This document shows, one piece after another, positions 45,811-61,168 of a stretch of DNA of 64,000 bases. Made by a program: the position numbers and the translations under genes. Position 1 is the first letter of the stretch. The number at the start of each line of letters is the position of its first letter. The notes under the pieces were generated by a model that was not told where the DNA came from, did not search any database, and saw only the letters and a list, made by a program, of their open reading frames with translations. The stretch is from Gammaproteobacteria bacterium (GTDB lineage Bacteria > Pseudomonadota > Gammaproteobacteria > Eutrophobiales > Eutrophobiaceae): contig JBHIXH010000006.1 in NCBI GenBank assembly GCA_041984885.1, positions 4,968 through 68,967 on the forward strand. The letters are read 5' to 3'.

Positions 45811-45922
45811 CTTTCGATAATTGGTTCAGGCGTTGTCACCGCAAGCACATAAACATTTAACATATTTGTAACATATTTACTCTAGTCTTCTGATCAATAT
45901 AAAAAAGTCAGAAGGTGAGAAT

Positions 45923-47380
45923 ATGAAAAACTGGATGCGCGCGCTTGCGGATCACTATGAAAAGATTCGCGAAAAATACCCGAACGATAACCTGGTTATT
46001 TTGTTCGACATTGACGGGACCATTCTGGATACCCGCTATACCGTCCTGAAGTTACTCCGCTCCTACGACAGGCAACACAATACGCAGTATTTTGATCAAC
46101 TGCATATTACCGATATTAATTTTAACGAAGAGGATCTGCGCCAAGAACTGGCAATGCTTGATTTAAGTGGCGATGAACTGGACGATGTTTGTCGCTGGTA
46201 CCAGGAAAACCGTTGGGCCAGTTGGGCCGTGTTCGAGGGCAACAAGCCATTTCCCGGCGTACTTGAAGTCATTCGCTGGTTTCAGCTGCAACCGAACACG
46301 GATGTCGGCCTGAATACCAACCGCGGCGAACAACTGCGCGAACACACCCTGGAAACCCTGAATAAACTCGGTATGGAATTCCGTATAGACATCAGGGATG
46401 AGCTGTTGTTAATGAACCAGGACCCGGCCACTATCAGTAGTGGTGAGGCAAAGATCAATGGAATTCGCCAGGTCCATGCCAATGGTCAGCGGGTCTTTGC
46501 AATGGTGGATAATGAACCACGCAACCTGGAGGTCATCTCGGCCGAAAATGATCTCGACGAGGTGTTGCTGTTACATGCGAACAGTTTTTACACTTTTGAT
46601 CGCAGTCGTATCAACGACAAACTGGTCAACGGCAAGATATACGATCTGACCGAGTTGATACCGAAACGGGCAATTCCACAACATATCCAGTTCGTCTGGC
46701 AAAGTGTCAATAATGAAGCCAGCCTGAATAAATTCCTTGGCTCCAATGTGAGCTGGGCAGATTTATCCGATTTGATTCAACCGGTGATTCAACAACGGCA
46801 GATATTACTGGATAAAGCCGGCCGGGATGTGCGCTCTACAAATCTTGAATCAATGTTTGAGCAATACATTAATCTCATGAAGCATAAACAGAGAGGCATC
46901 CGTTTATGTTTTGCAAACGACTTTGAAGAAATCGAGTTTATTATCGACATGCTGGTACACGCCGGGGTTGATGATAAACAATTGTGGTTCAGCGCCAGTC
47001 TCGATCAACTAACTGAAAACGGTTTTCGTTTCCTGTCGGACAGCTTCCCGAATGCCGTCATCGAATGTCCAATTGATTTTCTCGGCCAGGTGATTACGAC
47101 CACGCCAACCACCGCAGAACATTTACTCGATATGTACTCGGACTGGGGTATCAATCGATTCGCCATGAGTTGGCGTACCAGCAATATCAAGTCGTTATCT
47201 GCGATTATCGAGGGTTGGGGTTTTGAGCTGACGATAAACGACATTCGTAACCTGGAAACCTTCCTGCAGGCGGCGTTGCTGACACCGAAAGCGATCGTAT
47301 CGAATTTTAATTTTCCTGCCTGGAAGTCAATCAATGAACCGGCTTACGAACGCACGAGCGAGCGAAAACTTGTAAATTAA
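45923..47380 (+). CDS. HAD-superfamily hydrolase-like N-domain fused to ~250-aa domain of unknown function
   Basis: HAD motif I (ILFDIDGTILDTRY), motif II (GLNTNRGE) and a motif III/IV region (MVDNEPRN). No match recognised for the C-terminal half. Confidence 0.6.
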   Translation: MKNWMRALADHYEKIREKYPNDNLVILFDIDGTILDTRYTVLKLLRSYDRQHNTQYFDQLHITDINFNEEDLRQELAMLDLSGDELDDVCRWYQENRWASWAVFEGNKPFPGVLEVIRWFQLQPNTDVGLNTNRGEQLREHTLETLNKLGMEFRIDIRDELLLMNQDPATISSGEAKINGIRQVHANGQRVFAMVDNEPRNLEVISAENDLDEVLLLHANSFYTFDRSRINDKLVNGKIYDLTELIPKRAIPQHIQFVWQSVNNEASLNKFLGSNVSWADLSDLIQPVIQQRQILLDKAGRDVRSTNLESMFEQYINLMKHKQRGIRLCFANDFEEIEFIIDMLVHAGVDDKQLWFSASLDQLTENGFRFLSDSFPNAVIECPIDFLGQVITTTPTTAEHLLDMYSDWGINRFAMSWRTSNIKSLSAIIEGWGFELTINDIRNLETFLQAALLTPKAIVSNFNFPAWKSINEPAYERTSERKLVN

Positions 47381-47396
47381 TCAGCCTCCCCCTCTG

Positions 47397-47430
47397 GAAA
47401 AAGCCCGGTTTTTATACCGGGCTTTTTTGT
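47397..47430 (+). terminator. Rho-independent terminator
   Basis: aaaagcccggt / accgggctttttt hairpin followed by a T-run. Confidence 0.75.
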
Positions 47431-47479
47431 TTTATAGTGCTTAAAACCATGAACCAGACAAATCTTGAAGGAGGGCATC

Positions 47480-47845
47480 ATGCCATTAGTCAATATCTAT
47501 TTACTCAAAGGCAAGTCAAAAGAATATATAAAAGCGGTCAGTGATGGCATTAATTCTGCGGTTATCGAGACGATGGATTTTCCTGATGATGATCGTTACC
47601 AGATTGTGCATGAAGTCGAACCGCACTGTTTGCAATACCAGGATCGGGATGCGGATCGTGTCATGATGCACCTGACGATGCGTGCCGGGCGAGCGAACAA
47701 GGCGAAACAGGCGTTTTATGCGAAGGCCGTTGAAAACCTGCAAAAAGACCCCGGCATTGACCCCGGCAACGTGTTAATCACGATAGTGGAAAACCACGAT
47801 ATAGACTGGTCGTTCAAGGATGGTGTCGCCTCGTTTGTAGTCTAG
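47480..47845 (+). CDS. Tautomerase-superfamily protein (Pro1 after initiator Met)
   Basis: AGGAGG RBS 6 nt upstream of the ATG. MPLVNIYLLKG N-terminus typical of 4-OT/tautomerase enzymes. Confidence 0.7.
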   Translation: MPLVNIYLLKGKSKEYIKAVSDGINSAVIETMDFPDDDRYQIVHEVEPHCLQYQDRDADRVMMHLTMRAGRANKAKQAFYAKAVENLQKDPGIDPGNVLITIVENHDIDWSFKDGVASFVV

Positions 47846-47862
47846 TTGTTAATAACAAATAG

Positions 47863-49473
47863 CTATAAATCAGGCGAGACCGGCGCGGTAAATTGGTTAT
47901 CGGATTCATCGCTGTTTAATGCCTTTTGCAGATTAACGATGATGAAAATTATCAGCAGCGCAAACGGTAAACCGACGGATATGGCGGCGGTCTGTAATGC
48001 AGTCAGGCCGCCGGCGATTAACAGGATGGCAGCTACCAGTCCTTCTGTTATTGACCAGAAGACGCGTTGAACGACAGGCGGGTTGGCATGGCCGCCGGCC
48101 GTGATCATATCGATAACGAGTGAACCGGAATCTGACGACGTGACAAAAAAACTGATGATGACAACGGTCGCAAACGCACCGGCAGTCTTGAGCAGGATAT
48201 CGGGGAAGTTTTCATAACCGACCACGACCGGCAGCTTTTCAAAGAAAACGAACAGGGAACTCGCGACATTTTTTTGCACCGCGCCGACAAGTTCACCAGC
48301 CTGGTTGATCTCAACAAATAATGCGGCGTTACCGAACACGGATAACCAGATAAAGGTCATCAATGTGGCCACGACCAGAACTGCAAAAATAAATTCACGT
48401 ATCGTCCGGCCATAGGAAATACGTGCGACAAACATGCCGACGAACGGTGACCAGGCTATCCACCAGCCCCAGTAAAATACGGTCCAGCCGTTTTGCCAGT
48501 CACCACCGGTGTAGGTTTCATTCCAGAACGCGAGGTAAAAGAATCGATCCAGGTACAGGCCAAGGTTCTCGACAAAGCCATTCAGGATGAACAGCGACGG
48601 CCCGATAATAAATACAAACAGCAACAATAAAATGGCAACGAAAATATTGAACCTGGATAAATTCTGAATGCCACGATCAAGGCCGAGCACTACGGAAAGA
48701 GTCGCAACCGCGGTAATGCCGGTTATCAATAATATTTGTGTCAATGAACTGACCGGTATGCCAAACAGGTGGTCGAGACCGGCATTGATTTGACTGACGC
48801 CAAGACCGAGGGAGGTAGCGACGCCAAACAAGGTTGCCACTGTTGCGATCACATCGATTGCATGACCGTAGAAACCATAAATACGATCACCGAGAACGGG
48901 CTGAAAAATACTACGAATACTGAATGCCTGTTTTCGATTATAGGCAAAGTAGGCGATGGCCAGGCCGGTCAGGGCATAGATCCCCCATGCATGCAGCCCC
49001 CAGTGTAAAAACGTCGTGCTTATTGCATCTTCATACGCTCTCACACTGTAGGGGTTCGCCCCGTGTGGTGGTGTGATCAGGTGGAACACCGGTTCGGCCA
49101 CGGAATAAAACATGAGACCGATGCCCATACCGGCAGAGAACAACATGGCAAACCAGCCAAACCGGGAAAATTGCGGGTTTGCCTGCTTGCCGCCCAGGCG
49201 TATGTTTCCCGCAGGAGAAAATACAAGATAGATCAGGTAGGCCAGAATCAGATTTACGCACAAGACGAAAAACCAGCCGGTCTGGTTCGCTATCCAGGCC
49301 TGGATGGCGTTGATAGATTCAGCCACTGCTGTCAACGATATCAGGCAAACGACCACCAGCAAGGTGATCAGGACGACAGAAGAGAAAAATACAGGCGGAT
49401 TATAACTTAACCAGACGCGATCATGACGATCGCGGTATTCCTGGATTTTCAGTTTTTGATCCGCATCATTCAC
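47863..49473 (-). CDS. BCCT-family betaine/choline/carnitine transporter
   Basis: 536 aa with 12 transmembrane helices and a BCCT Trp-rich signature region (WTVFYWGWWIAWSPFVGMFVARIS). Confidence 0.85.
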   Translation of the reverse strand: MNDADQKLKIQEYRDRHDRVWLSYNPPVFFSSVVLITLLVVVCLISLTAVAESINAIQAWIANQTGWFFVLCVNLILAYLIYLVFSPAGNIRLGGKQANPQFSRFGWFAMLFSAGMGIGLMFYSVAEPVFHLITPPHGANPYSVRAYEDAISTTFLHWGLHAWGIYALTGLAIAYFAYNRKQAFSIRSIFQPVLGDRIYGFYGHAIDVIATVATLFGVATSLGLGVSQINAGLDHLFGIPVSSLTQILLITGITAVATLSVVLGLDRGIQNLSRFNIFVAILLLLFVFIIGPSLFILNGFVENLGLYLDRFFYLAFWNETYTGGDWQNGWTVFYWGWWIAWSPFVGMFVARISYGRTIREFIFAVLVVATLMTFIWLSVFGNAALFVEINQAGELVGAVQKNVASSLFVFFEKLPVVVGYENFPDILLKTAGAFATVVIISFFVTSSDSGSLVIDMITAGGHANPPVVQRVFWSITEGLVAAILLIAGGLTALQTAAISVGLPFALLIIFIIVNLQKALNSDESDNQFTAPVSPDL

Positions 49474-49490
49474 GGAAAAGCCCGGTTTTA

Positions 49491-50330
49491 TCAGTCAGGT
49501 TTTTGATAGTGCATGATACCCCATGCAAGGTAAGAGTTTTTTCCGGCTTCTATCCAGTGCTCAAGACCCTGGATCATGCGCGTGATGTAATCCGGCGAGA
49601 CAAACTGTTCCAGTTCTTCACGACGTGACAGTAACTCCTGCCGTACCCTGCCATAATGCGCGATCAACTGGTGTGTCATCTCGACCTGGCGCAGTTTTTT
49701 CCAGTTCAGTTTTTCTGCTATCGCCAGATAAAACTCAAAAGAACCGAGCGTATCGAGATGAATGCGATCAAGCACTGGTTGTAACACACCGTCCGGACAC
49801 GTATCCGATTGCATCGGGTCAGTAAAGATAAATTCACCACCCGGTTTTAAAACCCGATCAACCTCGTTTAATACCTTTTCGCGCTGACCGGAATGTAATA
49901 TTGCATCCTGTGACCAGGCAACATCAAAAGTGGAATCAGCAATGGACAGATCCTCAAAGCTGCCATCGATCACTTCGATCCTGTTACTGATGCCGAGTTT
50001 TTCATTGATGTCACGGTTGCGTGCATTCTGTGCCTCGCTCAGGTTGACACAGGTGACATTGCAGCCAAACTTATGATGTAGCCAGCGTGCTGCACCACCA
50101 TAACCGGCACCCAGATCAATGACGTTCGAGCCTGGCTGTATGCTTGTCAGCATCCCCGCCATTTTCGCCACGGTACGTTCGGATGCCGCGGCAATGGTGT
50201 CCGTTTCGTCTTCATACAGGCCGATATGTATATCTTCGCCGCCCCAGATGTGGAAGTAGAAATTGTCCGCATCATCGCTGTTGTAATACTCTTGCGCGGT
50301 TTTAACGACTTCTGAATAGTTTGCGTTCAT
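49491..50330 (-). CDS. Sarcosine/dimethylglycine N-methyltransferase (SDMT)
   Basis: Collinear with Halorhodospira halochloris SDMT (YYNSDDADNFYFHIWGGEDIHIGLY...DLGAGYGGAAR...GGEFIFTDPMQ). Confidence 0.85.
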   Translation of the reverse strand: MNANYSEVVKTAQEYYNSDDADNFYFHIWGGEDIHIGLYEDETDTIAAASERTVAKMAGMLTSIQPGSNVIDLGAGYGGAARWLHHKFGCNVTCVNLSEAQNARNRDINEKLGISNRIEVIDGSFEDLSIADSTFDVAWSQDAILHSGQREKVLNEVDRVLKPGGEFIFTDPMQSDTCPDGVLQPVLDRIHLDTLGSFEFYLAIAEKLNWKKLRQVEMTHQLIAHYGRVRQELLSRREELEQFVSPDYITRMIQGLEHWIEAGKNSYLAWGIMHYQKPD

Positions 50331-51139
50331 TAGTCTGTTTGAACATAACTTTTGGATGCCACGTGAATAAAGAAATCAGGCTCCTGGTTTTTAAACGTCT
50401 CCTGAAAATCGCCGTATGTTGTCACCTCCTGAAAGCCGACCTCTTTCATCAGCTTTTGCGTGTATTGCTTGCGCAGAGGAAACATGTTCAGGTGAAACGT
50501 TGCGCCGTCCTTGAATACGTATCGGAACCGCGCCAGGGTTGTATCCATGTGTTCCGGTGTTGCCGTGATCTCTTCGCCACAATAATAATAATTGTGGCCG
50601 GCCTCAATTTTGCCATCCATCAATGCATCGTAGTTTCGTTGATCGAGGATGAGGATACCGTCATGCCGCAGAGTGGCATAATACTCTGCCAGCGTTTTAC
50701 GGCGATCATTTTCATCATGTAAATGTGTAAACGAATTACCGAGGCAGATCACTGCATCGTAAAGATCATGCACGCTTTTGTTTAACCAGCGCCAGTCCGC
50801 ATGTACGGTTCTGAGTATATGTCCACGTTTACGCGCGTTTTCGAATGCCTTTGCCAACATGGCCGGGCTGCCATCGGCACTGGTAACTTCAAAACCGGCT
50901 TCCATCAGTTGTACCGAGTGGTAGCCGGTACCGGTTGCCACGTCGAGGACTTTTTTTGCCCCGTGCTCCTTTAGTATGTCGATAAAAAAGCTGCCTTCGC
51001 TATCGGCACGCCCGTCCCAGTCGATCAGTTCGTCCCATTTATTTACAAACGGGCTGATGTACTCATCGACGTACTTGTCCGAGCTTCGAACCCTGGTCGG
51101 GTTCTTGCCGTAATTCTGTTTCTTCGCTGTCTCAATCAT
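50330..51139 (-). CDS. Glycine/sarcosine N-methyltransferase (GSMT)
   Basis: Collinear with H. halochloris GSMT (DKWDELIDW...KKVLDVATGTGYHSV...SADGSPAML...TVHADWRWLNK). Confidence 0.85.
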   Translation of the reverse strand: MIETAKKQNYGKNPTRVRSSDKYVDEYISPFVNKWDELIDWDGRADSEGSFFIDILKEHGAKKVLDVATGTGYHSVQLMEAGFEVTSADGSPAMLAKAFENARKRGHILRTVHADWRWLNKSVHDLYDAVICLGNSFTHLHDENDRRKTLAEYYATLRHDGILILDQRNYDALMDGKIEAGHNYYYCGEEITATPEHMDTTLARFRYVFKDGATFHLNMFPLRKQYTQKLMKEVGFQEVTTYGDFQETFKNQEPDFFIHVASKSYVQTD

Positions 51140-51342
51140 AATATGCTCATTGCACCGGAATGCATGATGTCTGGTTAGTCAACGCTTCTCCATCCGGAAA
51201 AACGTACATTCAATTCAGTTTATTGTTTTTTTAGTCGTCCCTGCCTGAACAGGAACCTGGATAGATACTGAGCCTCAGGAGTCAGAACCTCAGCCATTGA
51301 AACGTGTTGTTACACGCAACGATGTAATCAGCATTGAAGCAA

Positions 51343-51368
51343 AGCCCACTTTGCAGGGGCTTTTTCTT
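51343..51368 (+). terminator. Orphan terminator-like hairpin in 620-bp non-coding region
   Basis: aaagccc-actttgca-gggcttt followed by ttttc. There is no + strand CDS upstream. Confidence 0.3.
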
Positions 51369-51760
51369 GTGTCTGATAATTGATGTAGTGCAGGCTGCGC
51401 TGCCTACAGATTCCTAACTATATGATAATTTTGAAATATTTTCAATGTCTAATCTCGTCACGGGCTTTAGCATTGCAGATAAGTAAATTCTCAATAATCG
51501 TGTATTTAACAGCCAGTTAGCGTATTTATGCCCTGTTTCGGGCGATCATCGTTTACACATTACCGATGTTAAACAGGCACTGCCATACCTTGCTGAACCA
51601 GGGCTTTCGGCCTTTCCGAATGCGGGGATAAACGCGCGAATGCGTCACAGGTAACTTGCTGTTGTTGCTTCATGCTTTTTTAACAGTTCAGTCAGGCGGG
51701 GCTGTATACAGGACAAGACGACCACTTTTTCTTTTCGCTTACCTGTAGCATGATCAGTCC

Positions 51761-52165
51761 ATGTGCGTTGCTATCAGATTTAAAAATTCCGAGGTGCGCT
51801 GGAACGTAACCGGTGCCGCGTTGCCGGTCATGGATAAGGAATCCGGTGAGATCGTCAGTTATCCGTGGGGGCGACGCGAATGGAACGAGCCCGGCAAGTT
51901 GTATCCGACCGGTTGGGCCCGACGCGAATCCATCGAGCAGGGCAAGTGGCAACGCTTTCATCCGCTGTCTGTTTTTATTGTTGCCGAATCGTTTATGGAG
52001 CGCGATCTCGACAAGCAACCGCACTGGGTCGATTTGCATGCGAGACAATACATCTCCGGTTTGCTTGTTGCATCCGGTGAAGAGAAGCGTGTCTATGTCA
52101 TTACCGTGCCGCCACCGGAGCCTCGTTTCAAACGTTGGCCGGAGATCGTGAATGAAGCTGGATGA
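51761..52165 (+). CDS. Short protein resembling an SOS response-associated peptidase (SRAP, YedK/HMCES family; Cys2 N-terminus); overlaps umuD start
   Basis: Starts MC... with a stop codon 15 nt upstream in frame. Contains RWNVTGAALPV (cf. the SRAP RYNVAPG..PV motif) and WGRREW / WARRESIEQ (cf. WG..P.W, NARxET). Only 134 aa, so truncated or divergent. Confidence 0.4.
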   Translation: MCVAIRFKNSEVRWNVTGAALPVMDKESGEIVSYPWGRREWNEPGKLYPTGWARRESIEQGKWQRFHPLSVFIVAESFMERDLDKQPHWVDLHARQYISGLLVASGEEKRVYVITVPPPEPRFKRWPEIVNEAG

Positions 52166-52577
52166 GTTTATTCTGCCAAAAGCGGAGTTATCCAGGCAGG
52201 AGATTCCGCTACTGGCAACGAAACTGGTCGCCGGGTTTCCCTCAGCCGCCGATGACTTTATTGATCAAAAACTCGATCTGAATGAATTCCTGATCAAGCA
52301 TCCGGCAGCGACCGTGTTTGCCTGGGCCAAGGGCGACTCGCTGATCGGTAAGGGCATATTCAATAATGATTTATTGATCATTGATCGCAGTATCGAACCA
52401 CAACATCACCAGGTCGTCGTCGCTGCGATCAATGGCGAGTTTACCTGCAAGATTCTCGACAAGAAGCAGGGCATGTTACTGGCTGCAAATGCCGAGTTCC
52501 CGCCGATCGATATCAATGGTCACGAGGATGCGTTGATCGAGGGTGTCATTATTCACTCGGTGCGAAGTCATATCTGA
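52152..52577 (+). CDS. umuD: Translesion polymerase V accessory subunit UmuD (S24 LexA-like peptidase)
   Basis: Aligns along its full length with E. coli UmuD (GFPSAADDFIDQKLDLN...GDSLIGKGIFNNDLLIID...INGEFTCK). Confidence 0.85.
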   Translation: MKLDEFILPKAELSRQEIPLLATKLVAGFPSAADDFIDQKLDLNEFLIKHPAATVFAWAKGDSLIGKGIFNNDLLIIDRSIEPQHHQVVVAAINGEFTCKILDKKQGMLLAANAEFPPIDINGHEDALIEGVIIHSVRSHI

Positions 52578-53836
52578 TGTACGCGCTCGTCGACTGCAAC
52601 AGCTTTTACGCATCGTGCGAGCAAATCTTTCGGCCTGATCTGCGTAACCAGCCTGTTGTTGTGTTGAGTAATAACGATGGTTGCATCATTGCGCGGTCAA
52701 AAGAAGCAAAGGCACTCGGTATCCCGGATCTGCATGCGTATTTCAAGGTCAAACCGTTTTTAAAAAAACATAACGTCACCGTGTTCTCGGCCAACTTCTG
52801 TTTGTACGGCGATATCAGCTGGCGGGTGATGGAGACGCTACGACAGTTCAGCCCGGCGACCGAGGTATACAGCATTGATGAGATGTTTGTTGATCTGCAT
52901 GGCAATATTGAACCGCTGGACACGCTGGGCAGAAACATCAAACAGCGTATCTGGCAACATGTACGCATGCCGGTCGGTGTCGGCATTGCACCGACGAAGA
53001 CACTGGCAAAACTGGCGAATCGTGGTGCAAAACATATCGCAAGAACGCAGGGCGTATGCGTACTGGATACAGCGGAGAAATGGCAATGGCTACAACGTCG
53101 TTTACCGGTGGAAAAGGTCTGGGGCGTAGGACAACGCTTTGCCAAACGTTTAAATCGTCTCGGTATATACACGATATTTGACCTGGCGCAGGCTTCAGCA
53201 AAGCGCGTGCGCGAACACAGCAATGTAAACCTGGAACGTACAGTAGAAGAACTGAATGGCGTGCCCTGTTATGCACTGGAAGACGCACATGCGAACAAGA
53301 AACAGATCTACGTCACGCGCTCGTTCGGAAAAAAAGCGACGACATCAGAGGAACTGAGAAACCATATCAGCCGTTATGCCAGTGCAGCCGCCGAGAAATT
53401 GCGTGCGCAAAATTGCAAGGCCAGTGTTGTTACTGTCTTTGTGCAAACCAGCCCGTTTGAAGATAACTATTATGGTAATGCGGTAACGTTACCTTTGCCG
53501 CATCCGACCGATGACAGTCGCGACCTGATCTACCAGGCAAGAAAAATGATTGCCTCGCTGTATCGACCGGGACACCGTTTCCAACGCTGCGGTTTCGGTA
53601 TTGTCGAGATGTTCGATAACACATATCGACAGTTCGATCTGTTTCATTCGGGGCAAACGCAGCAGTCAGAAATAATGATGACGACGCTGGACAGGATCAA
53701 TCGACGCTATGGGCGTGATACCGCTGTGTTTGGTGCGGAAGGACTGCGCGGCAAATGGACGATGCGACAAAACTATCTTTCGCCACGCTACACGACGAGC
53801 TGGAAAGACCTGCCGACAGTGAAGTGTATAAACTGA
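52577..53836 (+). CDS. umuC: Error-prone Y-family DNA polymerase UmuC
   Basis: MYALVDCNSFYASCE N-terminus and SNNDGCIIARS. The start overlaps the umuD stop. Confidence 0.9.
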   Translation: MYALVDCNSFYASCEQIFRPDLRNQPVVVLSNNDGCIIARSKEAKALGIPDLHAYFKVKPFLKKHNVTVFSANFCLYGDISWRVMETLRQFSPATEVYSIDEMFVDLHGNIEPLDTLGRNIKQRIWQHVRMPVGVGIAPTKTLAKLANRGAKHIARTQGVCVLDTAEKWQWLQRRLPVEKVWGVGQRFAKRLNRLGIYTIFDLAQASAKRVREHSNVNLERTVEELNGVPCYALEDAHANKKQIYVTRSFGKKATTSEELRNHISRYASAAAEKLRAQNCKASVVTVFVQTSPFEDNYYGNAVTLPLPHPTDDSRDLIYQARKMIASLYRPGHRFQRCGFGIVEMFDNTYRQFDLFHSGQTQQSEIMMTTLDRINRRYGRDTAVFGAEGLRGKWTMRQNYLSPRYTTSWKDLPTVKCIN

Positions 53837-53852
53837 TATTGCAGTAAACAGT

Positions 53853-54503
53853 ATGCAACAAATACTCGTTTATGCGGACAGTCTGTCATGGGGCATCATC
53901 CCGAAAACGAGGCAGAGATTTCCGTTTGAAAAACGCTGGCCCGGTGTAATGGAAATGCAATTACAGAAAAGCGGTCATGCCGTGCGTGTCATTGAAAACT
54001 GTCTGAATGGACGCAGAACCGTGTGGGACGATCCGTTCAAACCGGGCAGAGATGGTTCGCAGGGGCTGGCCCAGGTCATTGAAATGCATAGCCCGTTGAG
54101 TCTTGTTGTGCTGATGCTGGGCACGAATGATTTTCAATTTGTACACCATAATAATGCCTGGTCATCGGCACAGGGTATGGCAAAGCTCATCTCGATAATA
54201 AAATCAGCACCGATAGAGCCAGGTATGTCGGTGCCGGAGATGTTGATTATTGCGCCGCCAGTCGTGCAGCCAAAAGGTAATATGGTGGAAAAGTTCAGGA
54301 ATGCAGAACAAACAGCTAAAGGTCTGAACGAGGAACTGGAGAAGATAGCGAAAGAACAGGCAGTAGCGTTTTTTGATGCTGGCTCGGTAACAGCGTCAAG
54401 TCATGTCGATGGAGTTCATCTGGACGAGAACCAGCATCAATTACTCGGTGAGTCAGTATGTAGCCAGGTATTAAAATTAAATTGTCTACAGGATGCTAAA
54501 TAA
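53853..54503 (+). CDS. SGNH/GDSL-family hydrolase
   Basis: Block I YADSLSWG (GDSL-type), GTNDF block, and D-x-x-H near the C-terminus (DGVHLD). Confidence 0.7.
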   Translation: MQQILVYADSLSWGIIPKTRQRFPFEKRWPGVMEMQLQKSGHAVRVIENCLNGRRTVWDDPFKPGRDGSQGLAQVIEMHSPLSLVVLMLGTNDFQFVHHNNAWSSAQGMAKLISIIKSAPIEPGMSVPEMLIIAPPVVQPKGNMVEKFRNAEQTAKGLNEELEKIAKEQAVAFFDAGSVTASSHVDGVHLDENQHQLLGESVCSQVLKLNCLQDAK

Positions 54504-54545
54504 ATAATCTGACTCACCCGGGACTGAAACAGGGCGATGCCAATG

Positions 54546-55061
54546 CTATTTACCCAGATGCTGATAACTGAATAAAAATTCATTGCTTTGTAGCGGTGTA
54601 TGACAGGACACACAGTCAAGATCATTCTCTTTAATACCGCCCCTGGCATCATATATCGCATAACCCCAGTCGCCTGTTCTGTTATCCGCGGAGAACTGTG
54701 CATCCCAGTTGTTGCGTTTTTCCATCACTGCGATAGCCGCCAGTTTTGATTTTATAAATAACCCGTCAGCGCCAGTGACAGGATTGCCTGCCTCATCTAC
54801 CTCGGGTTTATAGACTTCCATGACCACAATGGAACCATCAGACAGCTTGCCGTTTTTAATACTTTCAATGGCGGCTTTATTCGCATAGAAATCAGCGACT
54901 TGTTTATTATTTGCACGATTTTGCGTGTGGTACTGAATAAACTGGTTTTTGTAATCTGCAGGAAATGGTACGAATTCCGGGTTGCCACCCGCGTAAGCAA
55001 ACATTGAAACTAATGCAATACAAGTAAAACCGGTTACATACTTCATCAACATGTCCTCCAC
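54546..55061 (-). CDS. Cytochrome P460 / c'-beta family protein (periplasmic, single CxxCH near C-terminus)
   Basis: Signal peptide. About 170 aa with a DCVSCH heme-binding motif 20 residues from the C-terminus. Confidence 0.6.
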   Translation of the reverse strand: MEDMLMKYVTGFTCIALVSMFAYAGGNPEFVPFPADYKNQFIQYHTQNRANNKQVADFYANKAAIESIKNGKLSDGSIVVMEVYKPEVDEAGNPVTGADGLFIKSKLAAIAVMEKRNNWDAQFSADNRTGDWGYAIYDARGGIKENDLDCVSCHTPLQSNEFLFSYQHLGK

Positions 55062-55079
55062 AGGGTGGCACTTTTAATA

Positions 55080-55102
55080 AACATGTATATAATATACATG
55101 TT
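55080..55102. promoter_or_regulatory. Perfect 11-1-11 palindrome matching NsrR (Rrf2) operator architecture
   Basis: AACATGTATAT-a-ATATACATGTT. Compare the E. coli NsrR box AAGATGCATTT-n-AAATGCATCTT. Lies between the divergent P460 and nsrR starts. Confidence 0.6.
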
Positions 55103-55171
55103 AATGGAGTGTAGTGGATGAAAGTAAAGTTGTCCAGATGTAATACGGTTGAATTCGGCAGGTAATGACGT

Positions 55172-55591
55172 ATGCAATTAACGAGGCAGTCTGATTATTC
55201 TTTAAGGGTGCTGATCTACCTGGCCCTGAATCCGGATCGACTTGCGAATATTGCTGAAATCGCCGATGCCTTTAACGTTTCACGAAACCACCTGGTTAAA
55301 GTCGTCCACCAGTTGTCTAAAACGGGATACATACGCACGGTTCGTGGACATGGCGGAGGTATCGAGTTGGCGTATTCTGCAGAAAAGATATCTGTCGGCT
55401 CAATAGTCAGAATGACAGAGAACACGCTTGAAGTGATTAACTGTAAACAACCCGTTTGCCCTATCTTGCCGGCCTGTCGATTAAAAAGAGTGTTGAATGA
55501 AGCAACGGAAGCATTTATGCGAACACTTGACGCTTATACGATCTCTGACTTGATACGAAATAAAAATAAATTAAATCGCTTAATTGCCTGA
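55172..55591 (+). CDS. nsrR: Rrf2-family NO-sensing repressor NsrR
   Basis: Rrf2 HTH (SDYSLRVLIYLA...) and a C-x4-C-x5-C cluster (CKQPVCPILPAC) with NsrR spacing. Confidence 0.8.
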   Translation: MQLTRQSDYSLRVLIYLALNPDRLANIAEIADAFNVSRNHLVKVVHQLSKTGYIRTVRGHGGGIELAYSAEKISVGSIVRMTENTLEVINCKQPVCPILPACRLKRVLNEATEAFMRTLDAYTISDLIRNKNKLNRLIA

Positions 55592-56010
55592 GCTACAAAC
55601 ATCAGGTAAATGAGTGGCAGACGACAGCTGATTTACTATTAAGCTATTTCCCGCTCCTTGCTGAATGCAGTCGGTAATAAAATGGAAAGAGAGAAACAAG
55701 ACAGGGTTGCTAGCGATGGGGATCTGGATCACCAATAGCAGCATCAAGAATGTGATCTGAATAGTTAATATAGCAATTAAAACAGCGGCTTAAGGTATTC
55801 GACCTGTGTTAAAACCCGTATCAATTTAGCTTCATTTCAGATTTCATTAAGTCTCTATTTGACACATTTAAGACCAAATCAGCACTTCAGATTAAATCTA
55901 TATGGTACTTTTCGCTTTCATTATTTAGAAATAGTCATTGTATTATTAATTTTAATAACACTAAGCCATAGGATGTTTATCTTCTTCACTAAAAATATCG
56001 ATCTTAAGCT

Positions 56011-57165
56011 ATGAACCCATTAAAAGTTTTATTAATTGAAGATCAGGGAGATGATGCGAAATTAATCAGAAGGATACTGACCAATAATTTTAACCTGGTT
56101 GAAATTGATCATATCGATGATCTTGACGTCTTTAAACAAAAGATACAGTCAGATAATTACGACATAATCCTGACTGATTACAATTGTGGCAATTTCTCAG
56201 GCATAGACGTAATTACTGAACTGGAAACACTTAATCGGGATATTCCTGTAGTTGTGATTACTGGAGAACATCGCATGGATATAGCAGTAGAAGCAATGAA
56301 ATACCATGTTGATGATTATATCCTTAAGGATTTTAGATGCTTCAAACAATTACCGGAAATAATAAAAAGAGTAATTGATAATCATAATGTTATAAGTGCC
56401 ATAAAAAATTCCGAAAAAAATATCAGTGAATCACTGGGTAATTATATAAACCTTTGTGTGAAATCACCGGAGCTTATAGTAAGCATATGGAATGACGGCT
56501 CTTTTATATCAATTAACACGAATCTTCAGAACATGCTCGGCTATTCAAGAAAAAAAATTAACAGTATGAATTTCAGAGATATTCTTGCTGAAGAATTTCA
56601 TATTGAATTTGATTATGTAATAAAGAATCTCGATCAAAACAAACCAAAAAAAGATGTGGAATTCGCTTTTGTAAATAACGAGGGCGACAAAATTTATGTT
56701 AAAGGCAAAGCCAGCACCCGGATTGAAAATGGAAAGATTATAGGTAGTCACTGGGTACTACATAATATCAGTGAATTTAAAAACCTGGATAATCGGTTAA
56801 TTCAGTCAAACCAGCAATATAAAGTTGTGTTTGAAAATGCATCAGTACCAATGGTTATGGGTGACCATCGTGGAATTGTCCTGCAGATAAACCAGGCGGC
56901 TTGTGCACTCATTGGATATTCCCGGGAAGAAATGCTGGGAAGACATATAAGGTCAATTACACATCCATTGGACATAATTATGAGCCTGATCAATCACAGG
57001 AAACTAACAAGGGGTTTGATAGATAACTATACACTTGTAAAACGATACAAGCATAAAGACGGTCATTATATCAAGGTAGAAGTTACAGCAGTTTTAATCA
57101 GAAACAAGGCAGGTCAACCGTGGTTCGCAATTGCAGAATTCAAAAAGCTTGAACCGGAATCATGA
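56011..57165 (+). CDS. Response-regulator receiver fused to two PAS domains, no output domain (very AT-rich gene)
   Basis: Receiver-domain Asp pocket (ILTDYN..., KD). Two PAS-like repeats. GC well below the window average. Confidence 0.7.
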   Translation: MNPLKVLLIEDQGDDAKLIRRILTNNFNLVEIDHIDDLDVFKQKIQSDNYDIILTDYNCGNFSGIDVITELETLNRDIPVVVITGEHRMDIAVEAMKYHVDDYILKDFRCFKQLPEIIKRVIDNHNVISAIKNSEKNISESLGNYINLCVKSPELIVSIWNDGSFISINTNLQNMLGYSRKKINSMNFRDILAEEFHIEFDYVIKNLDQNKPKKDVEFAFVNNEGDKIYVKGKASTRIENGKIIGSHWVLHNISEFKNLDNRLIQSNQQYKVVFENASVPMVMGDHRGIVLQINQAACALIGYSREEMLGRHIRSITHPLDIIMSLINHRKLTRGLIDNYTLVKRYKHKDGHYIKVEVTAVLIRNKAGQPWFAIAEFKKLEPES

Positions 57166-57216
57166 AAATCCACTAATGAAAATCTTTCCAGGTTATGTAA
57201 AGGAGTCGATTAAAAT

Positions 57217-57330
57217 TGGTGGCTATGGGTGGATTTGACAATTTTGTCGGGAACAAAATTGGGCAAACGTAGTTTGCCCTAAGGGTGAAATACAAGGACG
57301 TATTTCATCAGCTACCGACATCAGCATTAT
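57217..57330. repeat. Interrupted direct repeat of the 3'-terminal 42 nt of tRNA-Met (att-like), split by a 73-bp insertion
   Basis: 57217-57238 matches 58114-58135 (22 nt, 1 mismatch). 57312-57330 matches 58137-58155 (19 nt, 1 mismatch). The insertion at 57239-57311 carries the hairpin gggcaaac-gtag-tttgccc. Confidence 0.6.
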
Positions 57331-57477
57331 CAAATAGCATTTCAACGTCCATAGAGTTTTGATGAGAAAAAAGTCAATTAGTATCTGGCCTGTTAATATA
57401 CGCAGTATTAGATTCAGGCAGGATTGCAGGCTTCTTGTATTAAATTCTGTCTCGTACAGAAGAAAGAATTTTATTAC

Positions 57478-57984
57478 TTAAGGAGTAATAAATTCTTTAG
57501 CTGATTTTTCTGCATGATGCATTTGATTTGGGAATAATTTGTGTTCCTCGGATAGTGCTTTCATATGTTTGCGTGCATTTTTGTTGCCTTGTTTATGGGC
57601 CGCAAAAAACCACATGTAAGCAGTTGTAAAATCTCTTTCAGTATTCTCGCCATTTTCATACATTTTCCCCAGGTTATATTGGGCATCGGCATGCCCGCTT
57701 TTCGCAGCTAGTTCAAACCAGTGCATGGCTTTCCTGAAATTTCTTTTTACCCCGAGCCCAAGATAGTAATGTATACCAATATAATTTTGAGCTTCTGAGT
57801 TTCCAGAGTTCGCTAACGGAAACCAAAGTTCATAAGACCTCTCATAATTGCCCTTTCTGAATTCAGTTAATGGATCTGTACCTTCGTAACAGGACAATAT
57901 CGTGACAGCCAGGAGTAAAATAACAAACAATTGATGCACAATTATAAAACCCAATTGATATTGGCTCGATGAAGTTGACGCCAC
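57478..57984 (-). CDS. Sel1-repeat (TPR-like) protein with N-terminal TM helix
   Basis: Repeated Sel1-like units (AQNYIGIHYYLGLGVKRNFRKAMHWFELAAKSGHADAQYNLGKMYENG). AT-rich. Confidence 0.65.
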   Translation of the reverse strand: MASTSSSQYQLGFIIVHQLFVILLLAVTILSCYEGTDPLTEFRKGNYERSYELWFPLANSGNSEAQNYIGIHYYLGLGVKRNFRKAMHWFELAAKSGHADAQYNLGKMYENGENTERDFTTAYMWFFAAHKQGNKNARKHMKALSEEHKLFPNQMHHAEKSAKEFITP

Positions 57985-58113
57985 TAATGAATTATAGCGC
58001 GATGTATTTTTTCGTTATTAGATTAATTCATTTTCAGATTTAGCTAATTTCAATATACAGGTAAAGATTACATTAAAAGATTAAAGAGAAATTGAGACAT
58101 TGGAAAAGAAATT

Positions 58114-58190
58114 TGGTGGCTATGGGTGGACTTGAACCACCGACATCAGCATTATGAATGCTGCGCTCTAACCGACTGAGCTACATAGCC
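58114..58190 (-). tRNA. tRNA-Met (anticodon CAT, elongator type)
   Basis: The reverse complement folds as a canonical cloverleaf (GGCTATG acceptor, GCTC/GAGC D-stem, CAGCA/TGCTG anticodon stem, loop TTCATAA, GGTGG/CCACC T-stem, CCA end). Closest to E. coli elongator tRNA-Met. Confidence 0.9.
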
Positions 58191-58316
58191 ATGAGATCAG
58201 CTAATAGCTAGCAGGTAGTAGCCATTAGTGCAGGGAACGGGATTTTCTGTACTCGGTGTGGGCTTGTCAAGTTTGGATTACCGGAGTTCTTCCAACACCT
58301 CCTTCAGGAGGCTCAG

Positions 58317-59857: not shown

Positions 59858-61168
59858 CTAGTCGGATGCGACGCTGCCGGATTTAATCAGCACACCGGCC
59901 GGACCACTGACGATATGATGCACGAGAGAGGACTGGCGGTCGGTGCCGGTTTTGGAGAACAGTTTTTTCAGATGGGTTCGCGCCGTATTCACGGTAATCC
60001 CGATTGAGCTGGCGGCCTGCTCCAGACGCGGGTCACGCATCAGTGCCGCCGCCAGTCTGGATTCCGCCTTCGTCATTCCATATAAATATTCAAGCACGGT
60101 CTCCAACTGGGCCTGGTCCTTACGACCGGAGAATAAAAATATAATTGAAATCGGGGCAGAATTTGAACGTGAATTCAGTGAATTTTGCAAAGGGGAGATT
60201 AACAGGTAAATCGTGGTGTCCACCGAACCGTCGGTGAGTGTGATTTTCCCGTCTTTTGATTCCTGTACCAGCAGGATAAGCTGGTTTTGTAAATCCACAT
60301 CCGTCAACGTCAGTTGTTTATTGCTCAGGTTAATCAGGTTCGTGGCGTTGACCAGCGTTTTCGCCGTATCGTTGATAAAGGTCGGCTCCATCTGCTCATT
60401 GATCAGAATAACACCGGTAGAAAGGTAGTTTAGTGTCTGTTTAAACGCGTCTTCCATCGTATGTCTGGCAGATAAACGATCCTTGTTACTGATATTTTCG
60501 CATATGATCTTTATCTGATCGTTATGCTTGTCCGGTATATATTCCCAGGTAAAGATGTGATCAAAGATACGACCCGCGATCAGGTTGGAACTGTCAAGTC
60601 GCTGACAGTAACTGCTAACCTGTATGTGATTTAACGGTAGCAGTTGTTCCGGCTCGTCCAGTTCCAGCGTTTTCAGTGTTTCAAACATCGGTACCGGATC
60701 AAAATCAATGATTCGGCCTTTTGCGTCGCAGATGAACTCAACTTTTAACTCCGTTGCCTGTTCGACCTGTTCATGCTGTTGATTTTTCGCATTATGCCGA
60801 ACCTGTTCCATCGCGATTTCAACGGTAGAACGGATGTCCTTGTCACGCAGTGGCTTGTTGATATACCCAAGCGGATGGATATTTTTTGCGCGTGCCAGCG
60901 TGGCATCATCGTTATACCGGGTGACAAAGACGATCGGGGTTTTGAAACGCGTTTTGATTATGCTTGCGGCTTCGATGCCGTCAGCACCTTTACCCAGGTT
61001 GATGTCCATCAACACGAGCGAAGGATGGGATTTTTCCACTTGCTGGATGGCTTCGTCCGCGTTTTTGGCGAGAAAGGGCACCTTGTAGCCCAGACTCTGC
61101 AACTTTAGCTGCATGATTGAGGCGGTGGTTTTGTTGTCCTCAACGACTAGGATTTGCTCTCCCGGCAT
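59858..61168 (-). CDS. Response regulator: receiver domain, ~250-aa unknown sensory/PAS-like middle, C-terminal LuxR/GerE HTH
   Basis: Receiver domain (ILVVEDN...LVLMDINLG...K). C-terminal LuxR HTH (LTKAESRLAAALMRDPRLEQAASSIGITVNTARTHLKKLFSKTG). Confidence 0.75.
   Translation of the reverse strand: MPGEQILVVEDNKTTASIMQLKLQSLGYKVPFLAKNADEAIQQVEKSHPSLVLMDINLGKGADGIEAASIIKTRFKTPIVFVTRYNDDATLARAKNIHPLGYINKPLRDKDIRSTVEIAMEQVRHNAKNQQHEQVEQATELKVEFICDAKGRIIDFDPVPMFETLKTLELDEPEQLLPLNHIQVSSYCQRLDSSNLIAGRIFDHIFTWEYIPDKHNDQIKIICENISNKDRLSARHTMEDAFKQTLNYLSTGVILINEQMEPTFINDTAKTLVNATNLINLSNKQLTLTDVDLQNQLILLVQESKDGKITLTDGSVDTTIYLLISPLQNSLNSRSNSAPISIIFLFSGRKDQAQLETVLEYLYGMTKAESRLAAALMRDPRLEQAASSIGITVNTARTHLKKLFSKTGTDRQSSLVHHIVSGPAGVLIKSGSVASD

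What the first reader, a model, noticed from the sequence alone, without database searches (positions are those of the whole stretch)
55592..58190. Integrase-less island remnant at tRNA-Met with an att-like 42-nt tRNA 3'-end duplicate
The 3'-terminal 42 nt of tRNA-Met (anticodon loop through CCA) recur about 780 bp away, at 57217-57238 plus 57312-57330. That span is exactly what tyrosine-integrase att sites usually cover. The DNA between the repeats and to their left is strongly AT-rich against a roughly 50% GC background. It encodes only a Sel1-repeat protein and an output-less receiver-PAS-PAS regulator. No integrase, excisionase or transposase is left, so this looks like a decayed, fixed island carrying orphan signalling cargo.
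Basis: seen in the sequence. Interest (0 to 1): 0.6.

Follow-up and report, generated by a model that had tools for sequence, protein, structure and literature searches.

The report
RtT-like structured RNA beside tRNA-Met
The repeated tRNA-Met tail is not the scar of a dead island: it forms the two ends of a conserved three-hairpin RNA element of the kind that follows the tyrosine tRNA genes of E. coli, here split from its tRNA by a small AT-rich gene insertion.

Summary
tRNA-Met (58114-58190, minus strand) has its last 42 nt repeated as two blocks (57217-57238 and 57314-57333), and 55.6-58.2 kb is AT-rich (30-39% GC against about 50%). No integrase or transposase is present.

The 75 nt between the two blocks are three hairpins. 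The whole ~110-nt unit recurs 58-70 nt downstream of tRNA-Met in four related genomes that lack the Sel1 gene. Diverged or inverted copies occur elsewhere. Covariation is strong: 14 of 24 base pairs carry compensatory changes, and no shuffle out of 500 matched this.

The layout is tRNA, spacer, hairpin RNA, then the last ~20 nt of the same tRNA. That is the layout of the E. coli rtT repeats (Rfam RtT). Intermediate forms at tRNA-Gln link the two by sequence, but the Rfam model itself does not hit the window.

So the "att repeat" is an RtT-like trailer RNA. Sel1 is a 0.7-kb insertion between the tRNA and this element. The receiver-PAS-PAS gene lies outside the repeat, in a hypervariable zone.

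Hairpin loops are invariant N-U-C-C-N-U. On the opposite strand this reads as the CsrA-binding motif CANGGANG. The functional strand is unresolved.

The parts
58114..58190 (-). tRNA-Met (anticodon CAT), elongator type
   Evidence: ARAGORN. Rfam tRNA model 74.7 bits.
58242..58270 (-). Promoter-like site upstream of the tRNA (TTGACA, 17 nt, GAAAAT)
   Evidence: Consensus scan. The same hexamers and spacing precede the tRNA in L093 at 2667-2695.
57478..57984 (-). Sel1-repeat protein gene (my reading of the N-terminus suggests a lipoprotein). It is the content of the ~0.72-kb AT-rich insertion between the tRNA and the RtT-like element.
   Evidence: Pfam Sel1, E = 4e-21. This stretch is absent in L093, L001, L100 and L110, where the tRNA-to-element spacer is 58-70 nt. 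Best homologues are 52-59% identical small Sel1 proteins, some on long contigs.
57212..57333 (-). RtT-like trailer element: a tRNA-derived 5' flank, three hairpins, and a tRNA-derived 3' flank ending in CCA
   Evidence: Covariance model hits: window 144 bits, L093 139, L110 116, L100 68, L001 42. Model R2 also hits L029. Window-to-L093 similarity stops exactly at CCACCAA.
57314..57333 (-). 5' flank of the element: copy of tRNA-Met from anticodon loop to variable loop. Only TGA(T/G)GTC(G/A)G is shared with relatives.
57286..57307 (-). Hairpin H1 (8 bp). The hexaloop is GUCCUU on the minus strand and AAGGAC on the plus strand.
   Evidence: 4 of 8 pairs show compensatory changes. The loop is N-U-C-C-N-U in all 7 aligned copies (one carries an extra base). 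The plus strand reads ACAAGGACGU.
57261..57279 (-). Hairpin H2 (8 bp, G+C-rich, 3-nt loop), followed by AAUUUUGUU. It scores as terminator-like on the tRNA strand.
   Evidence: 5 of 8 pairs show compensatory changes.
57239..57261 (-). Hairpin H3 (8-9 bp). The loop is UCCCG on the minus strand and CGGGA on the plus strand.
   Evidence: 5 of 8 pairs show compensatory changes, 98% of cells paired.
57217..57238 (-). 3' flank of the element: copy of tRNA-Met from T loop to CCA (21 of 22 identical)
   Evidence: The same flank is 22 of 22 identical to the tRNA in L093 and L110.
56011..57165 (+). Receiver-PAS-PAS protein gene with no output domain. It lies outside the repeat and converges on the element.
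   Evidence: Pfam. Five full-length homologues at 44-54% identity. One sits between radA-MarR and PilZ-corC.
55592..58113 (.). AT-rich tract (GC 0.30-0.39)
45811..58113 (.). Hypervariable interval between tRNA-Met and the conserved MscS-like gene. It holds a HAD-type hydrolase, a BCCT transporter, two methyltransferases, a 141-aa ORF (52152-52577, read as umuD from its position only, not scanned) and UmuC, an SGNH hydrolase, cytochrome P460, Rrf2, receiver-PAS-PAS, the element and Sel1.
   Evidence: tblastn synteny: the same interval is about 0.4 kb in L002 and 1.9 kb in L005. Pfam.

Best explanation
The two tRNA-like blocks are the ends of one conserved unit of about 110-120 nt (57212-57333, on the tRNA strand). 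It consists of three independently folding hairpins nested in a copy of the 3' part of tRNA-Met, and it ends in ...CAUAGCCACCA. This is a tRNA-operon trailer element of the RtT type. In E. coli, each tyrT/tyrV gene is followed by about 60 nt of spacer, a multi-hairpin RNA, and the last 19 nt of tRNA-Tyr.

Shown: the unit exists, it is conserved in position (58-70 nt after tRNA-Met) and in secondary structure in related genomes, and it shares sequence blocks with RtT units through intermediates at tRNA-Gln.

Inferred: it is transcribed with the tRNA (in this window, with or after the Sel1 gene, which is on the same strand). Its 3' end is then made at the tRNA-like CCA end by the tRNA 3'-maturation enzymes. 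This releases a stable structured RNA whose invariant C-closed N-U-C-C-N-U hexaloops are the functional surface.

In this genome a 0.72-kb AT-rich piece carrying a Sel1 gene was later inserted between the tRNA and the element. The DNA beyond the element, including the receiver-PAS-PAS gene, belongs to a hypervariable zone that has no recombinase left.
For: - Position and conservation. The window unit matches L093 (Crp protein 93% identical) at 90% over 111 nt, while the neighbouring coding DNA is 77% identical.
- Substitution pattern. Between window and L093 there are 10 differences in 99 columns. Eight are unpaired, two form one compensatory pair, and none disrupts the 62 paired columns.
- More copies. 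Further copies sit downstream of tRNA-Met in L001, L100 and L110.
- Covariation. On 7 copies, 94% of cells are paired, 14 of 24 pairs have changes on both sides, the covariation score is 0.587 against 0.212 in shuffles (0 of 500 reach it), and slid controls give at most 0.149.
- Boundaries. The unit's 3' boundary is exactly the CCA end.
- Link to RtT. The E. coli tyrT locus has the same layout, and rttR is annotated on the tRNA strand. L021 at tRNA-Gln scores as Rfam RtT at 30 bits, E = 2e-4. L029 at tRNA-Gln is hit by the window-family model at 34 bits, E = 1e-5, and ends in GAGUAAUCC plus a tRNA-Gln 3' fragment. All share the blocks G-GAUGA(G/A)AACC and CCC-NNN-GGG.
- Transcription. The promoter-like site before the tRNA is conserved.
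Against: - The Rfam RtT model does not hit the window or L100, and the window-family model does not hit E. coli. Homology to RtT therefore rests on intermediates and short blocks.
- No transcript data exist, so strand and processing are inferred.
- Wobble pairs do not settle the strand. Counted on the 7 aligned copies they are 5 valid on the tRNA strand and 1 on the other. Two more on the other strand come from my reading of L029 and of the second upstream copy in L111.
- Inverted copies lie upstream of the tRNA in L110 and L111. Transcription from the tRNA promoter would read those as the opposite strand.
- In the window the element is 780 nt from the tRNA, not about 60 nt.
- The function of RtT itself is unknown.
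Confidence: 0.6

Rival explanations
1. The functional strand is the window's plus strand (57217 to about 57330), antisense to the tRNA. It encodes a small CsrA/RsmA-binding decoy RNA of the CsrB/RsmY/RsmZ kind. Hairpins H3' and H1' present GGA in their loops, and a CsrA dimer bridges the two.
For: - On that strand the H1 loop is A-N-G-G-A-N closed by C-G in almost every copy. The window reads ACAAGGACGU, L093 reads ACAGGGAAGU, and the second upstream copy in L111 reads ACAUGGAUGU.
- CANGGANG occurs 12 times on this strand and never on the other. GGA against TCC is 60 to 16 over nine copies.
- These match the published CsrA/RsmE consensus RUACARGGAUGU (GGA in a hairpin loop) and (A/U)CANGGANG(U/A) (PMC4347634, PMC4353343).
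- The long forms carry 3 such hairpins (L100). The upstream copies in L110 and L111 lie in this orientation behind tRNA-type promoters.
- There is a weak RsmY hit, 19 bits, E = 0.38, in L111.
Against: - No GacA/UvrY box with 3 or fewer mismatches lies upstream of any copy.
- No conserved promoter lies beyond the CCA boundary, where window-to-L093 similarity ends. No terminator is found on that strand.
- Rfam Csr/Rsm models are all below threshold.
- The window copy has only 3 GGA.
- The same conservation reads as N-U-C-C-N-U on the tRNA strand, so conservation alone cannot choose between strands.
- No csrA gene is present in the DNA held.
Confidence: 0.25
2. The repeat is the far att site of a decayed integrase-less island that entered tRNA-Met by tyrosine-integrase recombination, and the 75 nt are later junk.
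For: - The tract is AT-rich.
- The tRNA-Met locus is a hot spot. L005 carries 1.5 kb between the tRNA and a 3' fragment that L002 lacks. L009, L099 and L091 carry contiguous 3' fragments.
- Sel1 is absent from that place in the relatives.
- The window's 5' flank matches the tRNA over 17-20 nt, against 9 nt in relatives. That would fit a real att fragment fused to the older element.
Against: - The split repeat with its hairpins sits next to the tRNA, without cargo, in four relatives and is under structural selection.
- No integrase is present.
- The distal flank is not conserved.
- The receiver-PAS-PAS gene lies outside the repeat.
- No match to the tRNA tail or to the hairpins was found in viral contigs.
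Confidence: 0.1
3. The hairpins act at the DNA level, or only as a terminator and stability cluster. They could be a folded single-strand recombination site, or an intrinsic terminator of the tRNA operon (H2 plus AAUUUUGUU) with accessory stems.
For: - H2 is called terminator-like in both window and L093.
- Copies occur in both orientations around the tRNA. This fits a strand-neutral DNA role.
- The unit always abuts tRNA gene fragments.
Against: - A terminator does not need H1, H3 or invariant loop bases.
- H3 covaries although its 5' arm would be the U tract.
- The element is single-copy in 64 kb and is seen only at tRNA loci, unlike REP or MITE elements.
- No recombinase lies nearby.
Confidence: 0.05

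Closest known systems
RtT RNA (rttR, Rfam RF00391), the repeat units of the E. coli tyrT-tyrV operon
   Same: The layout is the same: a tRNA gene, about 60 nt of spacer, a multi-hairpin RNA of about 100 nt, then a direct copy of the last 19-22 nt of that tRNA (from the T loop to CCA) on the tRNA strand. Short sequence blocks are shared, namely G-GAUGA(G/A)AACC, CCC-NNN-GGG, and the remainder of the T loop. Intermediate forms exist at tRNA-Gln.
   Different: It is attached to tRNA-Met in an uncultured gammaproteobacterial lineage. It has three 8-9 bp hairpins, two of them with invariant N-U-C-C-N-U loops that E. coli RtT lacks. It is a single unit rather than a tandem array, and inverted copies lie upstream of the tRNA in some genomes. 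It is not detected by the Rfam model.
CsrB/CsrC/RsmX/RsmY/RsmZ decoy RNAs for CsrA/RsmA
   Same: Read on the opposite strand, the element has several short hairpins with GGA in the loop. At least one per copy fits (A/U)CANGGANG(U/A).
   Different: No GacA/UvrY upstream box was found. No promoter or terminator of its own was found. It has fewer GGA sites, is fused to tRNA gene fragments, and falls below threshold for every Rfam Csr/Rsm model.
tRNA-borne genomic islands and their integrase-less derivatives (cis-mobilisable elements bounded by att repeats)
   Same: It is a direct repeat of a tRNA 3' part downstream of the intact tRNA, with AT-rich cargo and variable content between strains and species.
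   Different: The repeat is interrupted. It is conserved without cargo in relatives. The flank beyond it is the variable part. No integrase is present in any of the loci inspected.

Membership tests
tRNA-integrated genomic island (tyrosine-integrase att sites) | Integrase or excisionase gene inside the element, usually next to the tRNA | tested here: not met
   Pfam scans of the long ORFs (150 aa or more) between 45.9 and 58.1 kb found no recombinase.
tRNA-integrated genomic island (tyrosine-integrase att sites) | Contiguous direct repeat of the tRNA 3' segment at the far end of the element | tested here: not met
   The repeat is two blocks split by 75 nt. The split form is conserved in L093, L110, L100 and L001.
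tRNA-integrated genomic island (tyrosine-integrase att sites) | Relatives with an empty site: a single tRNA copy followed directly by the flank that lies beyond the repeat | tested here: not met
   Relatives keep tRNA plus repeat element without Sel1. The DNA beyond the element is not shared. An empty-site pair was seen only for a different insertion (L002 against L005).
tRNA-integrated genomic island (tyrosine-integrase att sites) | Composition deviating from the host genome | tested here: met
   GC 0.30-0.39 against about 0.50.
RtT RNA (RF00391) | Lies downstream of a tRNA gene on the same strand | tested here: met
   It is on the same strand in all cases. The distance is 58-70 nt in L093, L001, L100 and L110, and 780 nt in the window because of the Sel1 insertion.
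RtT RNA (RF00391) | Ends in a copy of the last ~19 nt of the upstream tRNA, including CCA | tested here: met
   The window copy is 22 nt with 21 identical. For comparison, E. coli units end in AATCCTTCCCCCACCACCA.
RtT RNA (RF00391) | Reaches the Rfam gathering score (45 bits) | tested here: not met
   There is no RtT hit in the window at E up to 10, nor in L100. L021 reaches 30 bits.
RtT RNA (RF00391) | Shared core sequence and structure with E. coli RtT | tested here: inconclusive
   Short blocks align through L021 and L029. Model R2 gives at most 8.6 bits on E. coli.
RtT RNA (RF00391) | Released as a stable RNA by processing of the tRNA operon transcript | not testable with these tools
   No expression data are available.
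Csr/Rsm decoy sRNA | Several GGA motifs in hairpin loops, with at least one (A/U)CANGGANG(U/A) site | tested here: met
   On the plus strand the window has 3 GGA and ACAAGGACGU. Across the copies CANGGANG is 12 to 0 between the strands.
Csr/Rsm decoy sRNA | GacA/UvrY upstream activating sequence TGTAAG-N6-CTTACA | tested here: not met
   No site with 3 or fewer mismatches lies within 73-311 nt upstream (the stretch available) of any copy.
Csr/Rsm decoy sRNA | Own promoter and intrinsic terminator | tested here: inconclusive
   No conserved promoter lies beyond the CCA boundary. No terminator was called on that strand. The upstream copies in L110 and L111 do follow promoter-like sites.
Csr/Rsm decoy sRNA | Match to Rfam CsrB, CsrC, RsmX, RsmY or RsmZ | tested here: not met
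   The only signal is a 19-bit RsmY hit in L111 (gathering score 57).
Csr/Rsm decoy sRNA | Binds CsrA, and csrA is present in the genome | not testable with these tools
   No csrA was found in the window or in the fetched loci. The rest of the genome is not available.
REP / MITE-type dispersed repeat | Many copies scattered over the genome | tested here: not met
   Each hairpin is unique in the 64 kb. Model hits in 1.39 Mb of loci (window included) lie only at tRNA-Met or tRNA-Gln.

The most novel reading that the evidence does not exclude
RtT-type units are a cradle of CsrA-titrating RNAs. On this reading, the window's plus strand (57217-57330) and the tRNA-promoter-driven upstream units of L110 and L111 encode a new family of Csr/Rsm-like decoy RNAs built inside tRNA gene fragments. 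The long-unexplained E. coli rtT RNA, with its conserved GGAUGAGAA block, would belong to the same functional class.
Probability: 0.2. Interest if true: 0.75.

Novelty: new variant of a known kind. Interest (0 to 1): 0.5.

Why it matters
The function of rtT RNA has been unclear since its description in 1991. The family is known mainly from the enterobacterial tyrT locus. A divergent relative at tRNA-Met, with forms at tRNA-Gln, shows three things: the layout "tRNA, hairpin RNA, tRNA tail" is wider than thought; it is under clear structural selection; and it has a small invariant loop motif that can be mutated and tested. If the motif works as GGA, it would connect tRNA operons to the Csr/Rsm network.

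There is also a practical lesson. A tRNA 3' repeat next to AT-rich DNA is not by itself an att site. Island-calling tools that rely on such repeats would mis-call loci of this kind.

Tried and rejected
- **Phage or satellite origin.** Exact scans of viral contigs with the 42-nt tRNA tail, with hairpin H2 and with a degenerate H3 pattern all found nothing.
- **Known RNA family in the window.** Rfam at E up to 10 over 55.0-58.4 kb gave only the tRNA and chance hits.
- **Dispersed repeat (REP or MITE).** The window holds no second copy of any hairpin.
- **A third att fragment at the left edge of the AT-rich tract.** The 10-nt match CTGAGCTACA at 55588-55597 to the tRNA 5' part is at chance level by my estimate (about 0.6 expected). 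No further copy of either 3' block exists in the window.
- **Strand assignment from G-U wobbles.** The result was inconclusive (plus my reading of L029 and the second upstream L111 copy).
- **GacA box upstream of the copies.** None was found.
- **csrA or a gacA orthologue near the locus.** None was found.
- **Closer strains of the source genome.** Apart from the 77-kb NCBI contig recorded for the Crp protein (presumably the window's source), only two short contigs from one sequencing run (SRR32696350) turned up, both identical to the window.
- **Donor or mobile context for the cargo.** The receiver-PAS-PAS homologue looked up sits in a core neighbourhood. Sel1 homologues reach at most 59% identity, and some lie on long contigs.
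- **Bösl and Kersten 1991.** The paper could not be read. What I say about rtT processing rests on the RefSeq annotation, on citing papers and on my own knowledge.
Full report
**1. Observation.** One tRNA gene is present in the window: tRNA-Met(CAT) at 58114-58190 on the minus strand. Its 3' part recurs upstream in window coordinates as two blocks.
- 57212-57238 matches 58109-58135 (27 nt, 93%). Of this, 22 nt lie inside the tRNA, from the T loop to CCA.
- 57314-57333 matches 58139-58158 (20 nt, 95%), from the anticodon loop to the variable loop.
- Each block is otherwise unique in the 64 kb. None of 100 shuffles gave a second match.
- The copy is not contiguous. Seventy-five nt (57239-57313) replace three nt of the tRNA.
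- GC is 0.30-0.39 from 55.6 to 58.2 kb, against about 0.5 around it.
The tract is flanked by Rrf2 on the left and by Crp, OsmC, a cyclophilin-like protein and a receiver-LuxR regulator on the right.

**2. What the 75 nt are.** They consist of three perfect hairpins of 8-9 bp: 57239-57261, 57261-57279 and 57286-57307. Folding is far better than for shuffled sequence (z = -5.4 on the tRNA strand and -3.9 on the other). None of the hairpins recurs in the window.

**3. Relatives.**
- A scan of species-representative genomes with the Crp protein shows that the order receiver-LuxR, (cyclophilin-like), OsmC, Crp, tRNA-Met is conserved. Everything after the tRNA differs from genome to genome.
- Farther out the order resumes: MscS-like gene, ABC transporter, miaB, phoH, ybeY, corC, lnt. 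The variable interval is 12.3 kb in the window (45811-58113) and about 0.4 kb in L002.
- This interval holds no recombinase among its long ORFs.
- A metagenome scan with the exact 42-nt tRNA tail found L093, whose Crp is 93% identical. In L093, 58 nt after the tRNA, lies the same split repeat with the same three hairpins. It is 90% identical over 111 nt, while the adjacent coding DNA is 77% identical.
- Similarity between window and L093 begins at TGATGTCGG and stops exactly at CCACCAA.
- There are ten differences in 99 columns. Eight are in unpaired positions, two form one compensatory pair, and none disrupts the 62 paired positions.

**4. A family.**
- A covariance model built from these two copies found further copies 65-70 nt after tRNA-Met in L001, L100 and L110.
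- It also found inverted copies between Crp and the tRNA in L110 and in the L111 group, each placed behind a promoter-like site and a 5' fragment of tRNA-Met.
- On seven copies, 94% of cells are paired and 14 of 24 pairs have changes on both sides. The covariation score is 0.587, against 0.212 in shuffles (0 of 500 reach it) and at most 0.149 when the partners are slid.
- The element is therefore real, conserved and selected for its fold. It is not junk inside an att scar.

**5. What it resembles.**
- A second model (R2) also hit L029. There the unit follows tRNA-Gln and its terminator, and ends in GAGUAAUCC plus a tRNA-Gln 3' fragment.
- A related unit after tRNA-Gln in L021 is scored by Rfam as RtT (RF00391): 30 bits, E = 2e-4, below the gathering score of 45.
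- I fetched the E. coli K-12 tyrT locus. tyrT and tyrV are each followed by about 60 nt of spacer, a multi-hairpin stretch, and AATCCTTCCCCCACCACCA, which is the last 19 nt of tRNA-Tyr. This unit occurs once between the two genes and three times after tyrV. rttR is annotated on the tRNA strand.
- The window unit has exactly this layout. An alignment of E. coli, L021, L029 and the tRNA-Met family shows shared blocks: G-GAUGA(G/A)AACC, CCC-NNN-GGG, and the T-loop remainder followed by the tRNA end.
- Direct model-to-sequence tests fail in both directions. I therefore call it RtT-like, a divergent variant, and not a member of RF00391.

**6. The loops and the strand question.**
- In all copies the H1 loop is N-U-C-C-N-U closed by C-G, and the H3 loop holds UCC.
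- On the complementary strand this reads C-A-N-G-G-A-N-G. The window has ACAAGGACGU and L093 has ACAGGGAAGU.
- CANGGANG occurs 12 times on that strand and never on the other. GGA against TCC is 60 to 16.
- This is the published CsrA/RsmE site: RUACARGGAUGU with GGA in a hairpin loop, or (A/U)CANGGANG(U/A) (PMC4347634, PMC4353343).
- Against a decoy RNA: there is no GacA box; no conserved promoter lies beyond the CCA boundary; no terminator is called on that strand; and only a 19-bit RsmY hit appears, in L111.
- Wobble pairs do not decide the strand.
- The RtT layout, the position after the tRNA and the CCA boundary favour the tRNA strand. The motif favours the other strand. I rate them 0.6 and 0.25.

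**7. The island idea.**
- Relative to four carriers of the element, the window has about 0.72 kb of extra AT-rich DNA with the Sel1 gene between the tRNA and the element. That is a real insertion.
- The window's 5' flank matches the tRNA over 17-20 nt instead of 9. This would fit a true att fragment later fused to the older element through the shared TGATGTCGG. This step is inference.
- The receiver-PAS-PAS gene is outside the repeat. Its five homologues are 44-54% identical. One lies between radA-MarR and PilZ-corC and is AT-rich there as well (29-32% GC against 40%).
- Sel1 homologues are at most 59% identical, and some lie on long contigs.
- Other relatives (L005, L009, L099, L091) do carry contiguous tRNA-Met 3' fragments with short cargo and no integrase. 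L002 is an empty site for L005. The locus is therefore a recombination hot spot.
- Those fragments are preceded by a conserved AAGTGACTGTTT motif. In L110 and L111 the same motif overlaps a -35-like hexamer before the tRNA. Even they may be remnants of duplicated tRNA genes rather than att sites.

**8. Verdict.** The repeat is the pair of ends of an RtT-like structured RNA element. This is a new variant of a known but poorly understood kind, and its conserved loop motif makes the function testable.

Noticed in passing
L111 3640-4362; L110 3640-4116: Between Crp and tRNA-Met there are one (L110) or two (L111) units. Each consists of a promoter-like site (GTGACT, 17 nt, TATAAA), the first ~27 nt of tRNA-Met (GGCTATGTAGCTCAGCTGGGCGAG) and about 230 nt of hairpins rich in GGA loops (7-9 GGA per unit). 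They look like small RNA genes built on duplicated tRNA promoters and 5' ends.
   Followed up: partly
L021 430-576 (minus); L029 1600-1790 (minus): RtT-like units follow tRNA-Gln and its terminator, and each ends in a copy of the tRNA-Gln 3' end. In L021 the terminator is copied as well. L021 has ANGGAN loops on the tRNA strand, whereas L029 has UCC loops on that strand.
   Followed up: partly
L093 2866-2880; L001 10852-10862; L100 7357-7366; L110 4246-4255: A conserved box TGAACCAC(C/T)G lies 17-20 nt before the element. It is the reverse complement of the tRNA's own T-stem and T-loop sequence CGGTGGTTCA, so it could pair with the tRNA in a joint precursor. The window keeps only TTGAA at that position.
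   Followed up: no
L005 12180-12331; L009 11900-12058; L099 13400-13538; L091 540-640: Contiguous tRNA-Met 3' fragments are preceded by a shared AAGTGACTGTTT motif at fixed spacing in L005, L009 and L091, and by a related motif (TAAGCGGCTGT) at shorter spacing in L099. The same motif overlaps the -35-like hexamer of the tRNA-Met promoter in L110 and L111. These 'att fragments' may be internally deleted tRNA gene copies that keep their own promoter.
   Followed up: partly
L100 7468-7582; L001 10965-11032: In these two genomes the element has a long form. Extra hairpins, again with N-U-C-C-N-U loops, lie between H3 and the terminal CATA(G/A)CCACCA. The window, L093 and L110 have the short form, whose tRNA tail is identical to the tRNA in L093 and L110 and 21 of 22 in the window.
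   Followed up: partly
window 47863-51139: A BCCT betaine/choline transporter sits next to two SAM-dependent methyltransferases inside the variable interval. I read this as a likely glycine-betaine synthesis and uptake module.
   Followed up: no
window 52152-53836: A 141-aa ORF (read as umuD from its position only, not scanned) and a umuC gene (error-prone polymerase V type) lie inside the variable interval. In many bacteria this pair travels with mobile DNA.
   Followed up: no
window 54546-55591: Cytochrome P460 is divergently paired with an Rrf2-family regulator. The pairing suggests a nitrogen-oxide or hydroxylamine response module. The AT-rich tract begins exactly at the Rrf2 stop codon.
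   Followed up: no
window 59858-61168 and its counterparts in L001-L008, L096, L099, L100, L103, L110: A receiver-LuxR-type regulator (220-436 aa) keeps its place two to three genes from tRNA-Met in all relatives that have the Crp-tRNA-Met arrangement. It is a candidate regulator of the locus, but this was not tested.
   Followed up: no
L096, L095, L007, L011 (contig ends): Several metagenome contigs end exactly at or inside tRNA-Met. This is what a repeated tRNA tail does to short-read assembly, so such units are probably under-sampled in metagenome assemblies.
   Followed up: no
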